From the human T2T-CHM13v2.0 reference genome, Homo sapiens, in the NCBI RefSeq assembly GCF_009914755.1, contig NC_060925.1: a DNA stretch of 64,000 bases. One strand, 5' to 3'. The notes under the pieces are model-generated. The model made no database searches. It saw only the letters and a program-made list of their open reading frames with translations, and was not told the origin of the DNA. The position numbers were made by a program, and so were the translations under genes. This document shows, in pieces, positions 61,840 through 64,000 of the stretch (within the stretch, counting starts at the first letter, position 1; each line of letters begins with the position of its first letter).

Positions 61840-62447
61840 TGTCTTCATCTTTAAACATCATTGTTTCCTATCTTTAGGGAGAGCTCACCTGCTCTCCATC
61901 CAGCAAGCACCTGATCCAGGCCACCTGAGCAGGTAGCAGAGCTCATCACAGCTTATCTTATCTGCCAATTTCTTCCTTTTTTTTTTTTTTTACGATGAAT
62001 TCATTTATTTTATGTATTAAATTAGACAAAGAAATAAATATGCAACTGGATAAAAACAATCACATTCTTATACTACCTGAACACACAGTAGTGGTAAAAA
62101 AAAAAAATAAAATAATGAATTGTAAAATGGGCCCCAGGATTTAATGCAAACATCACCCTGTACAAGAAAAGTTTCAGGCTTCTAGCTTCACCGAATCTAG
62201 TACTAAATGTGCTTCTTTATATTCCTCAGTGTCTTCCAAGTCTTTTTCACTTTCTAACATCTGTTGAAGATCCAAATATGCAGCTTCCAACCTGCGCTGG
62301 CAATCTGGGATCATCATCTGGGATTCTTGTAGGATCTCTGCCTGCTTTTTAATGGCATAATTTTCACCATCTTCGGCTCTCATTTTTTCGATCTTTTCTT
62401 CTTGTTATTTTGCTTCTTTTCCATACGTCAGTTTTTCTTTGACCGAC

Positions 62448-62611
62448 CTGCAAACCTCTGATGGCTCTCTATTACCAAGCAATTCAACTTTTTCTTGTAA
62501 TATCATGACTTTTCCCTTGCTTCTTTGGAGCACTTCCAGCATCACTAGTGGCACTCCGTATGGGTCTCGTGGTGTTATTTAAGATTTACATTCAAGGTTT
62601 ACAAGATTGCA
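62448..62611 (-). mobile_element. Internal Tigger2-like (TcMar-Tigger) fragment, transposase 5' region, at the TBCA exon1/exon2 junction
   Basis: Minus strand GACCCATACGGAGTGCCACTAGTGATGCTGGAAGTGCTCCAAAGAAGCA..GAAAAGTCATGATATTACAAGAAAAAGTTGAATTGCTTG matches the recalled Tigger2 consensus (..ATSDAGSAPKKQRKVMTLQEKVELL); no TIR, no TA TSD. Confidence 0.8.
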
Positions 62612-62697
62612 CACTTCACCACACTAGTCTTGATCTTGGTTGGCCTCATGCAAGGGTTGGCCGTGGTCCCTTGAGCACTGCAAGAAGAAGGAGCAGA

Positions 62698-62990
<293 letters not shown>

Positions 62991-64000
62991 TCGAAGGACA
63001 GGCAGAGACACCAGTTTCTTATTCAGGTCCTCATAGCAATTTGACCAGTTCTGGTCTTCTCAGGGGTCGTTTTTAAAGGGAATGGAAATATGTCCCTGCT
63101 TCGACCCTAAGCAACTACCCTTGACTTTGACTTTGGTGTCCAAAAGCTCCATGTTGATTTGTTAAGTAGGGCTGATTATGTCTCGCCTTCTTCAGGGACA
63201 GTGGTCCTCAAGGTTGTTTTGGCTTTCGGACAACTTGGATAGGACAAAAGGACTGTCCGCCTCCTTATCACCTCCTTCGCATTTGCCGTTCTTAATAGAA
63301 CCCCTTCTGAGATAGGGAGGCAGTTGTTTCTCCCGGCAACAGGATGCTAAGGGAGGGGTAGCAGAATTAATTGTATCTTCCCACCAGGAGGAAGGAACCA
63401 CAGTGCTGTCATTCTAAATGTTGGTATTGCGTCTCTGGGTCTAGCCTGCGTGTTGAGAGCCATCACCTGGAAGAGGAGGATCCTAAGCTGAGAGAGGGAA
63501 ATTCTTAAATCAGCTCATGCTGGACTCGTCTTACGTTGTTTTACCCTGAATCTGGAAAGCATAGCAGAGTCATGGGGTGGGACTGCCTGAAACGGCGGTC
63601 TAACCACTGCTGGTATAGAAACTTAGATCTTGCCCATCACCTTACCCTTGACCTTCCCTCTTCTTCCATAAACCGTCTGTGGGATGAGTGTGTGTTGTGC
63701 GTGATTCAGCTTACACCAGACTTGTCACCTGTCATTCAACAGGGTCTGTAACTGTTGCTTTAGTTTCAGAGGCACCCGTTTTTCTTGGGTGTTTGGAGGC
63801 GAGTCTGGAAGTATGTTTCAGGGAAGGGACCAGATATGTATTTCAAGGTTCAGCATGTTAAGTTGTGCTTGCTCTCCAGGCGCTCAGCTCAGCCCCCATT
63901 AAAAAGGCTGAACTGGAGAATTGTAACAACATACAGAGGGGTCCTGAGAGCCTGCCCCACACTGCGACCATGATGGTCTGTTACTGGAGAAGGTTTAAAA

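What the first reader, a model, noticed from the sequence alone, without database searches (positions are those of the whole stretch)
62448..62611. TBCA retrocopy preserves an exonised Tigger2 cassette exon: a fossil of an alternative TBCA isoform
Seen: on the minus strand the TBCA-like coding sequence runs 53 nt from the mutated start (62664-62612, ending AAG TG), is interrupted by 164 nt of foreign sequence, and resumes at G TCG GTC AAA GAA AAA (62447) with no loss or duplication of TBCA bases. Recalled knowledge: TBCA exon 1 carries 53 coding nt (AAG CG|G TTG GTC); the insert matches internal Tigger2 sequence, and in the Tigger2 consensus its first bases (TGCAAT) follow ...GTTTAG, an acceptor-like AG. 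The insert ends in CAG, a typical exon 3' end. It has no terminal inverted repeats or TA duplication, so it does not look like a transposition into the pseudogene. Inference: L1 machinery copied a TBCA mRNA that had spliced in a Tigger2-derived exon from intron 1.
Basis: partly seen in the sequence, partly recalled or inferred. Interest (0 to 1): 0.85.

Follow-up and report, generated by a model that had tools for sequence, protein, structure and literature searches.

The report
TBCA retrocopy carrying a transposon-derived exon
This dead copy of the TBCA gene was made from a messenger RNA that had spliced in a piece of an old Tigger-type transposon from TBCA's first intron, so it records a rare splice form, which is a known kind of genomic fossil.

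Summary
On the minus strand, 53 nt of TBCA exon-1 coding sequence (62664-62612) are followed by a 164-nt foreign block (62611-62448). TBCA exon 2 then resumes at 62447 with nothing lost or duplicated.

I located the parent gene in the same assembly (chr5, minus strand). The break falls exactly on the real exon 1/exon 2 junction. The foreign block comes from one particular Tigger-type transposon copy inside TBCA intron 1, in sense orientation:
- It is the only genomic copy that aligns from insert base 1.
- An AG acceptor sits directly before that base.
- It shares a private 13-nt tandem duplication with the insert. A 23-mer across that duplication occurs exactly twice in 3.1 Gb: in the insert and in this intronic copy.

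The other two retrocopies with an exon-1 part (chrX, chr4) join exon 1 to exon 2 directly.

Two things do not fit cleanly. Today's intronic copy has no GT/GC donor in register with the insert's 3' end. The insert's last 28 nt are abnormally scrambled.

The extra exon brings a stop codon after 22 codons. Retrocopies as records of splice forms are already known, so this is a new example of a known kind, of moderate interest.

The parts
63011..63020 (-). Candidate 5' target-site duplication of the retrocopy (AAGAAACTGG)
   Evidence: 9 of 10 identical to 61965-61974, which lies just past the poly(A). Placement is right, but 176 of 2000 shuffles reach the score, so it is weak on its own.
62993..63008 (-). 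First bases of the retrocopy's 5' UTR, cut off from the rest by a later Alu. 62993-63007 is one copy of the Alu's target-site duplication.
   Evidence: family D9 (62684-62698 and 62993-63007, 73% alike). Read.
62699..62992 (+). Alu inserted later into the retrocopy's 5' UTR. It is sense on the + strand, and its A-tail reads as T-rich on the minus strand.
   Evidence: (sequence), D9 (flanking direct repeat), and the hub's repeat mask 62692-62990. The name Alu is my reading of the sequence; no repeat library was run.
62665..62698 (-). TBCA 5' UTR part of the retrocopy
   Evidence: retrocopy positions equal to window 62698-62614 align to the parent exon-1 region (L039 4275-4191, 77.6% over 85 nt).
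62612..62664 (-). TBCA exon-1 coding part: 53 nt, start codon mutated to ACG
   Evidence: 40 of 53 identical, no gaps. 12 of 13 differences are transitions, as expected for a CpG-rich exon after copying.
62448..62611 (-). 164-nt cassette derived from the Tigger-type copy in TBCA intron 1
   Evidence: first 139 nt are 115 of 126 identical to C5:78231654-78231779. It is the only copy aligning from base 1, and AG stands directly upstream in the intron.
62577..62602 (-). Private 13-nt tandem duplication inside the cassette, shared only with the intron-1 copy
   Evidence: D11 (two 13-nt units, 85% alike); present in the insert and L007, and in 0 of 28 other copies; the junction 23-mer is exact at 2 places in the genome.
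62448..62475 (-). Scrambled 3' tail of the cassette. It ends in ...GAGGTTTGCAG, which follows the family's ...GAGGTCTGCAG.
   Evidence: 17 matches, 8 mismatches and 5 gap events, against 115/11/2 in the first 139 nt. Fisher p = 7e-5. No other source in intron 1 or in the genome.
62341..62447 (-). TBCA exon 2 part
   Evidence: 97 of 107 identical, no gaps.
62254..62340 (-). TBCA exon 3 part, joined directly to exons 2 and 4
   Evidence: 80 of 86 aligned bases identical.
61992..62253 (-). TBCA exon 4 part: end of coding sequence (stop at 62176-62174) and the 3' UTR through the polyadenylation signal. One base is lost at the exon 3/4 join.
   Evidence: 214 of 240 aligned bases identical.
61977..61991 (-). 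Poly(A) tail, 15 A
61965..61974 (-). Candidate 3' target-site duplication (AAGAAATTGG)

Best explanation
TBCAP2 is a processed (L1-type) retrocopy of a minor TBCA messenger RNA. In that RNA, exon 1 was spliced to a latent acceptor inside a sense-oriented Tigger-type DNA transposon copy, 26.4 kb into the 67-kb intron 1. About 164 nt of the transposon were kept as a cassette exon. This stretch covers the end of the transposon's leader and the first codons of its transposase. The cassette was then spliced to exon 2.

The cassette puts a stop codon 22 codons into the reading frame and shifts the frame. The isoform was therefore a non-productive 'poison exon' form.

The RNA was reverse-transcribed and inserted on chr1, antisense within a KAZN intron, roughly 30-50 million years ago. 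Since then the copy has decayed, taken an Alu into its 5' UTR, and suffered a clustered mutation in the cassette's last 28 nt. The intronic source lost 12 nt and changed at the cassette's 3' border.

Shown: the junction positions, the source copy, its orientation, the acceptor, the stop codon.

Inferred: that the 3' border was a splice donor, the age, L1 as the copying machinery, and a germline origin.
For: (1) The break is exactly on the parent's exon 1/exon 2 junction, with no TBCA base gained or lost.

(2) Of 39 non-self matches scored genome-wide (691 first-look candidates, 40 scored), only C5:78231654-78231779 on the minus strand starts at insert base 1. The other 38 start at bases 11-31. 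The same holds in pairwise alignment of 29 copies.

(3) That copy lies between TBCA exon 1 (ends C5:78258189) and exon 2 (starts 78190940), on the gene's strand.

(4) The intron reads ...TTTTTTGTGTTTAG directly before the first cassette base. AG is at this position in 22 of 29 family copies, so it is a family-wide latent acceptor.

(5) The 13-nt tandem duplication is a shared private character, including the same C-to-T change in its second unit. It is in the insert and the intron copy, and in 0 of 28 other copies. The 23-mer across it is exact at 2 places in 3.1 Gb, with none at 1 mismatch. The 2-mismatch chr7 hits are an unrelated 13-mer array.

(6) Cassette core identity to the intron copy is 115 of 126. 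That matches exons 2-4 against the parent, 391 of 433 (Fisher p = 0.86). One shared age fits both.

(7) Retrocopy hallmarks are present. Exons 2/3/4 are contiguous, a 15-A tail follows the parent's polyadenylation signal, and a plausible flanking duplication exists.

(8) Two of two other retrocopies with an exon-1 part join exon 1 to exon 2 directly. The cassette is therefore an isoform feature, not part of the standard mRNA.

(9) Stop after 22 codons, both in the retrocopy and in today's gene sequence read the same way.

(10) Published context: sense-strand intronic Tigger elements carry cryptic splice sites. SAFB proteins keep them silent in somatic cells, and a subset of those events is active in testis (PMC10901741, abstract and passages).
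Against: - In the colinear alignment the intron after the cassette's last base reads CTGCAT, not GT or GC. The family state there is also ...CTGCAG then CTG in most of the 29 copies. The nearest GC is 1 nt upstream and the nearest GT is 8 nt upstream. End-position scores cannot separate these: 3, 2 and 1 points under one scoring scheme.
- The last 28 nt of the cassette are far more altered than the rest.
- The intron copy lacks 12 nt that the insert and the family have. A later deletion must be assumed.
- By substitutions alone the intron copy is not uniquely closest. It is 0.913 identical, against 0.913 for L002 and 0.921 for L028.
- The retrocopy's target-site duplication is not significant by itself (176 of 2000 shuffles).
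- No transcript evidence could be consulted. TBCA does not appear in the 5 held supplementary files of PMC10901741.
Confidence: 0.85

Rival explanations
1. Only the 5' join was made by splicing. The 3' join (cassette to exon 2) arose when the copying reverse transcriptase jumped within a partly processed TBCA RNA, from the intron/exon-2 border to the Tigger segment, helped by the AG that ends both stretches.
For: There is no canonical donor in register with the cassette's 3' end, in today's intron or in the family state. Both stretches end in AG...TTTGCAG in the cassette and ...TTATAG before exon 2. Template switching by L1 reverse transcriptase is known; this is recalled, and no paper was read here.
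Against: The jump would have to start exactly at exon 2's first base, with only 2 nt of shared sequence to guide it. The other three borders (exon-1 donor, cassette acceptor, exon-2 acceptor) are all canonical splice sites. The template would have carried a 40.7-kb intron remnant.
Confidence: 0.07
2. The block entered the pseudogene after it had inserted on chr1. It came either by transposition of a Tigger element or as filler DNA captured during break repair, and it landed on the exon junction by chance.
For: The block is transposon sequence. Its scrambled tail could be read as a repair scar.
Against: - It is an internal 164-nt fragment with no element ends and no TA duplication.
- It sits on the exact exon junction, with no TBCA base lost.
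- Its source is the one family copy, out of at least 691 candidates, that lies in the very intron removed at that junction. That copy is in sense orientation and starts right after an AG.
Confidence: 0.02
3. The block is from a different, unsampled or since-lost Tigger copy, or the resemblance to the intron-1 copy is convergent. On this view the retrocopy records something other than a TBCA intron-1 exon.
For: Substitution identity does not single out the intron copy. One other copy (L014) shares several single-base states with the insert in the alignment. Only 40 of 691 candidates were scored.
Against: The exact 23-mer scan covered the whole genome and found only the two places. L014 is only 0.864 identical overall and lacks the duplication. 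The location of the match inside TBCA intron 1 would then be a coincidence.
Confidence: 0.03

Closest known systems
Processed pseudogenes and retrocopies as archives of past transcript isoforms (Shemesh et al. [quoted passage not shown]
   Same: A retrocopy keeps the exon structure of the mRNA it was copied from, including non-standard splice forms. PMC4772013 states that retrocopies have served as archives of transcript isoforms and cites these papers (passage seen).
   Different: I saw only the citing passage. The 2006 paper itself is not held, so I cannot say whether TBCAP2 is in its lists. Here the recorded exon is transposon-derived and non-productive. Its source copy has since changed at the 3' border.
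Exonization of sense-oriented intronic Tigger DNA transposons, normally suppressed by SAFB proteins (PMC10901741, Nature 2024)
   Same: A Tigger-type element on the host gene's strand supplies cryptic splice sites. The paper reports new splice sites enriched in L1 and Tigger elements after SAFB knock-down, and says a subset of such events is active in testis (abstract and passages).
   Different: The paper describes mainly gene-trap-like use, where an acceptor is followed by the element's polyadenylation site. Here an internal cassette is spliced on to exon 2. TBCA is not in the 5 supplementary files held. SAFB involvement here is inference only.
Poison (stop-carrying, decay-prone) cassette exons
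   Same: The cassette is not a multiple of 3 (164 nt then, 151 nt colinear today). It brings a stop after 22 codons, far upstream of the last exon junction.
   Different: No evidence of regulation, conservation or present-day use. It may simply have been splicing noise.
Chimeric retrocopies made by reverse-transcriptase template switching (recalled from the literature; no paper read here)
   Same: Foreign sequence joined to a gene's retrocopy.
   Different: Such chimeras join separate RNAs end to end. Here the foreign block is internal, comes from the gene's own intron in sense orientation, and is bounded by the gene's own splice sites on three of four sides.

Membership tests
Processed (L1-type) retrocopy of TBCA | Parent exons joined without introns | tested here: met
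   one continuous 463-nt match in the window, against three separate exon matches on chr5; exons 2, 3 and 4 abut.
Processed (L1-type) retrocopy of TBCA | Poly(A) tail at the parent's polyadenylation site | tested here: met
   15 A directly after the stretch that aligns to the parent's 3' UTR end.
Processed (L1-type) retrocopy of TBCA | Flanking target-site duplication | tested here: inconclusive
   9 of 10 match at the right places, but 176 of 2000 shuffles score as well.
Exonised transposon cassette exon of the parent gene | Source element lies in the parent's intron at that junction, on the gene's strand | tested here: met
   C5:78231629-78231779, minus strand, inside intron 1.
Exonised transposon cassette exon of the parent gene | AG acceptor immediately before the cassette's first base in the intron | tested here: met
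   a T-rich run, then GTGTTTAG, then TGCAAT.
Exonised transposon cassette exon of the parent gene | GT or GC donor immediately after the cassette's last base in the intron | tested here: inconclusive
   today's human intron has CT in register, GC at -1 and GT at -8. The relevant sequence is the allele of tens of millions of years ago, which these tools cannot reach. The cassette tail is too scrambled to fix the register.
Exonised transposon cassette exon of the parent gene | Transcripts with exon 1-cassette-exon 2 junctions | not testable with these tools
   No RNA-seq or EST resource is on hand. Text searches for TBCA with Tigger and with exonization found nothing on this exon.
Tigger2 (named subfamily of pogo/Tigger DNA transposons) | Match to the subfamily consensus in a repeat library | not testable with these tools
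No Dfam or Repbase is on hand.
Tigger2 (named subfamily of pogo/Tigger DNA transposons) | pogo-type transposase with a CENP-B-like N-terminal DNA-binding domain | tested here: inconclusive
   a 114-aa frame of a sister copy (L006) gives CENP-B_N at E 2.8e-4 and 20.9 bits, just under the 21.2-bit cut-off.
Direct DNA-transposon insertion into the pseudogene | Element ends (inverted repeats) and a TA target duplication | tested here: not met
   the block is an internal fragment and its flanks show no TA duplication. In one search it aligns to the interior of 29 family copies.

The most novel reading that the evidence does not exclude
The retrocopy is the only surviving record of a TBCA splice form whose donor no longer exists. 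There are two routes to this. A complex local mutation in the intron-1 Tigger copy may have created a donor on an allele that was copied in the germline and then lost. Alternatively, the donor was destroyed later, at the two changed bases now seen at the border. That would give a dated birth-and-death history for a transposon-derived poison exon. Combined with the reported testis activity of Tigger exonization, it suggests old retrocopies could be mined systematically for germline-only, transposon-derived isoforms that no RNA data set can show.
Probability: 0.3. Interest if true: 0.55.

Novelty: new member of a known kind. Interest (0 to 1): 0.4.

Why it matters
- It is a clean, base-exact case where a pseudogene preserves a splice form that is non-productive and probably short-lived. 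Such forms are hard to see in RNA data.
- It shows that a sense-strand Tigger-type copy in TBCA intron 1 was used as an exon in the germline tens of millions of years ago. That fits recent work on the suppression of Tigger exonization outside the testis.
- It shows that the RefSeq span of TBCAP2 (61985-62448) stops at the cassette. The span misses the exon-1 part, the 5' UTR and the cassette itself.
- It does not reveal a new mechanism.

Tried and rejected
- The 89-nt exon-1/5' UTR query found only itself genome-wide. Exon 1 was found instead by fetching the expected chr5 stretch and aligning.
- I asked whether the last 28 nt are a second mini-exon from elsewhere in intron 1. A short-word BLAST over the 78-kb gene region gave only chance words of 8-10 nt. 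A 60-nt genome query across the tail found only the window. Rejected.
- I asked whether the donor was the GT 8 nt upstream (GAG then GTCTGT). Rejected, because the 8 nt after it in the retrocopy still follow the transposon at 7 of 8 positions.
- A count of 'shared derived states' on a MAFFT alignment was spoiled, because the insert's first 35 nt were misaligned around the duplication. Its ranking is discarded. Pairwise alignments and the exact 23-mer scan replace it.
- The chr7 hits with 2 mismatches to the 23-mer were fetched and are a plain 13-mer array with no further match.
- Literature: TBCA with Tigger gave 2 irrelevant papers. TBCAP2 gave 1 irrelevant paper. TBCA with exonization gave 1 paper, which lists a different cryptic exon.
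- Earlier findings of this scan were not open. The Shemesh 2006 paper is not held.
- The ORF list added nothing beyond.

Full report
**What is in the window**

Read on the minus strand, the stretch 63020-61965 holds these pieces in order:
- a short A-rich direct repeat (63020-63011);
- about 16 nt of TBCA-like 5' UTR;
- an Alu-like insert (62699-62992), flanked by its own 15-nt direct repeat (family D9);
- the rest of the 5' UTR (62698-62665);
- 53 nt matching the TBCA exon-1 coding part, with the start codon changed to ACG (62664-62612);
- a 164-nt foreign block (62611-62448);
- TBCA exons 2, 3 and 4 without introns (62447-61992);
- 15 A (61991-61977);
- the second copy of the A-rich repeat (61974-61965; 9 of 10 identical, but 176 of 2000 shuffles do as well).

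**The parent gene**

The window's own assembly could be searched. The exon 2-4 part of the retrocopy finds 7 places:
- itself;
- two other retrocopies (chrX at 89%, chr4 at 80%);
- a 3' fragment on chr5 at 158.9 Mb;
- three separate matches on the minus strand of chr5 at 78.17-78.19 Mb, which are TBCA exons 4, 3 and 2.

Exon 1 is too decayed in the retrocopy to be found by search. I fetched the expected stretch and aligned it. One search shows three things:
- The parent exon 1 has 53 coding nt and ends ...GTGAAGCG, followed by GTAAGG.
- Exon 2 begins GTTGGTCAAAG after ...TTATAG.
- The chrX retrocopy joins the two directly.

The chr4 retrocopy does the same. The foreign block therefore sits exactly on the real exon 1/exon 2 junction, and no TBCA base is missing or doubled. 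Exon 1 aligns at 53 of 53 columns and exon 2 at 107 of 107 columns without gaps.

**Where the block comes from**

A genome-wide search with the 164 nt gave 691 first-look candidates, of which 40 were scored. These are members of one dispersed repeat family. Among the 39 non-self matches, 38 start at insert bases 11-31. One starts at base 1: C5:78231654-78231779, minus strand.

This place lies inside TBCA intron 1, on the gene's strand. It is 26,409 nt below the exon-1 donor and 40,688 nt above exon 2. In the intron, the base before the block's first base closes a T-rich run ending GTGTTTAG. That is a canonical acceptor. AG stands at this position in 22 of 29 family copies, so the family carries a latent acceptor just upstream of its transposase start.

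The decisive character is a 13-nt tandem duplication near the block's 5' end (D11). It is present in the insert and in the intron-1 copy, with the same base change in the second unit. It is absent from 28 of 28 other copies aligned. The 23-mer that spans it occurs exactly at two places in 3.1 Gb, the insert and C5:78231749-78231771. There is no place at 1 mismatch. The two overlapping chr7 hits at 2 mismatches are an unrelated 13-mer array.

Substitutions alone do not single out the intron copy. It is 0.913 identical, against 0.913 and 0.921 for two other copies, because all copies are about equally far from the family's common form. The cassette core is 115 of 126 identical to the intron copy. 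Exons 2-4 are 391 of 433 identical to the parent. These proportions do not differ (p = 0.86), so one shared age fits both.

**What kind of repeat it is**

A 114-aa open frame of a sister copy covers the same stretch. It gives a borderline Pfam match to the CENP-B N-terminal DNA-binding domain (E 2.8e-4, 20.9 bits, cut-off 21.2). That fits a pogo/Tigger-type transposase. The cassette spans the end of the element's leader and the first codons of that frame.

**Consequence for the protein**

Read from the TBCA start, the cassette brings a stop after 22 codons. This holds in the retrocopy and in today's gene sequence read the same way. Its length is not a multiple of three: 164 nt in the fossil, 151 nt colinear today. 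The isoform was non-productive.

**What does not fit**

- First, the donor. The cassette's last 11 nt follow the family sequence...GAGGTCTGCAG in most copies. So the cassette did run through that point. But the next bases are CTG in the family and CTGCAT in today's intron, where the border reads ...GTCTGTGG then CTGCAT. A GC lies 1 nt upstream and a GT 8 nt upstream. Alignment scores for these ends differ by one or two points only. The GT at -8 is excluded, because the retrocopy continues colinear with the transposon for 7 of the next 8 nt.
- Second, the last 28 nt of the cassette show 17 matches, 8 mismatches and 5 gap events against the intron copy. The first 139 nt show 115/11/2 (p = 7e-5). 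No other source for this tail exists in intron 1 or in the genome.
- Third, the intron copy lacks 12 nt that the insert and the family have. A later deletion in the intron explains this simply.

The donor therefore remains unverified. It may have been a weak GC donor with a 1-nt change since. It may have been a donor on an allele that no longer exists. Or the join may have been non-canonical.

**Mechanism**

The best-supported account has four steps:
1. Exon 1 was spliced to the Tigger-type acceptor.
2. The cassette was spliced to exon 2.
3. The RNA was copied and inserted by the L1 machinery in the germline.
4. The copy decayed and later took an Alu.

The splice positions on three of four sides, the source and the stop codon are shown. 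L1 as the copier is inferred from the poly(A) tail, the intron loss and the A-rich flanking repeat.

The age of roughly 30-50 million years is inferred from about 9-10% divergence of exons 2-4. The neutral rate of about 2e-9 per site per year is recalled, not computed here.

A germline setting is required for any inherited retrocopy. It is made more plausible by the report that SAFB proteins suppress cryptic splice sites in sense-strand intronic L1 and Tigger elements in somatic cells, and that a subset of these events is active in testis (PMC10901741, abstract and passages). TBCA is not named in the 5 supplementary files held for that paper.

**Rivals**

- Later insertion into the pseudogene is all but excluded by the junction position, the source, the orientation and the AG.
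- A reverse-transcriptase jump for the 3' join alone would explain the missing donor. It needs a jump from exactly the first base of exon 2, on a template with a 40.7-kb intron remnant.
- A different source copy is excluded by the genome-wide 23-mer scan.

**Comparison with what is known**

That retrocopies archive transcript isoforms is established. PMC4772013 says so, citing Shemesh 2006 and Podlaha and Zhang 2009 (passage seen). The 2006 paper itself is not held, so I cannot tell whether this locus is listed there. Exonization of Tigger elements is also known.

Text searches found nothing on this exon or this pseudogene. Supplementary tables of transcriptome papers, which I could not search broadly, may still list it.

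This is a new, well-documented member of a known kind, of moderate interest.

Noticed in passing
window 62699-62992, flanks 62684-62698 and 62993-63007: An Alu-like element inserted into the retrocopy's 5' UTR after retroposition, with a 15-nt flanking direct repeat (73% alike). It splits the first ~16 nt of the TBCA 5' UTR from the rest.
   Followed up: partly
window 61985-62448 (RefSeq TBCAP2 span) against 61965-63020: The annotated pseudogene span ends at the cassette's 3' border. It omits the cassette, the 53-nt exon-1 part, the 5' UTR and the Alu. The full retrocopy is about 1 kb long.
   Followed up: yes
window 62448-62475: The cassette's last 28 nt carry a cluster of substitutions and small indels (8 mismatches, 5 gap events), far above the rest of the retrocopy. 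No template for it was found in intron 1 or in the genome. Unexplained.
   Followed up: partly
L007 / C5:78231629-78231779 (TBCA intron 1): Today's intronic source copy lacks 12 nt that the insert and the other family copies have. The deleted stretch and the sequence after it both begin with CCA, which suggests a slippage deletion after the retrocopy was made. The two bases at the cassette's 3' border (CA in the family and the fossil, TG today) have also changed.
   Followed up: partly
L002-L030 (29 family copies genome-wide): 22 of 29 copies keep a T-rich run plus AG just upstream of the transposase start, on the sense strand. The family carries a ready-made acceptor wherever it sits in sense orientation inside an intron.
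   Followed up: partly
L032 (C23:32639860-32640310) and L033 (C4:102224333-102224745): Two other TBCA retrocopies (chrX at 89% and chr4 at 80% to this one) have the standard exon 1-exon 2 join. The chrX copy keeps a longer 5' UTR and is very close to the parent, so it is much younger. A 3' fragment lies at C5:158892456-158892625 (L035).
   Followed up: partly
TBCA intron 1, hg19 chr5:77,026,223-77,026,280 (from PMC8801146, Table 2): A different, SNP-dependent 58-nt cryptic exon in TBCA is in print. By my rough coordinate conversion it lies about 18-19 kb from the Tigger-type cassette, so it is not the same exon. The conversion uses recalled gene coordinates and was not checked by any search.
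   Followed up: no
L047 / C7:98288001-98288036: A short tandem array of a 13-mer resembling the duplicated unit, with no further similarity to the cassette. It is a chance look-alike.
   Followed up: yes
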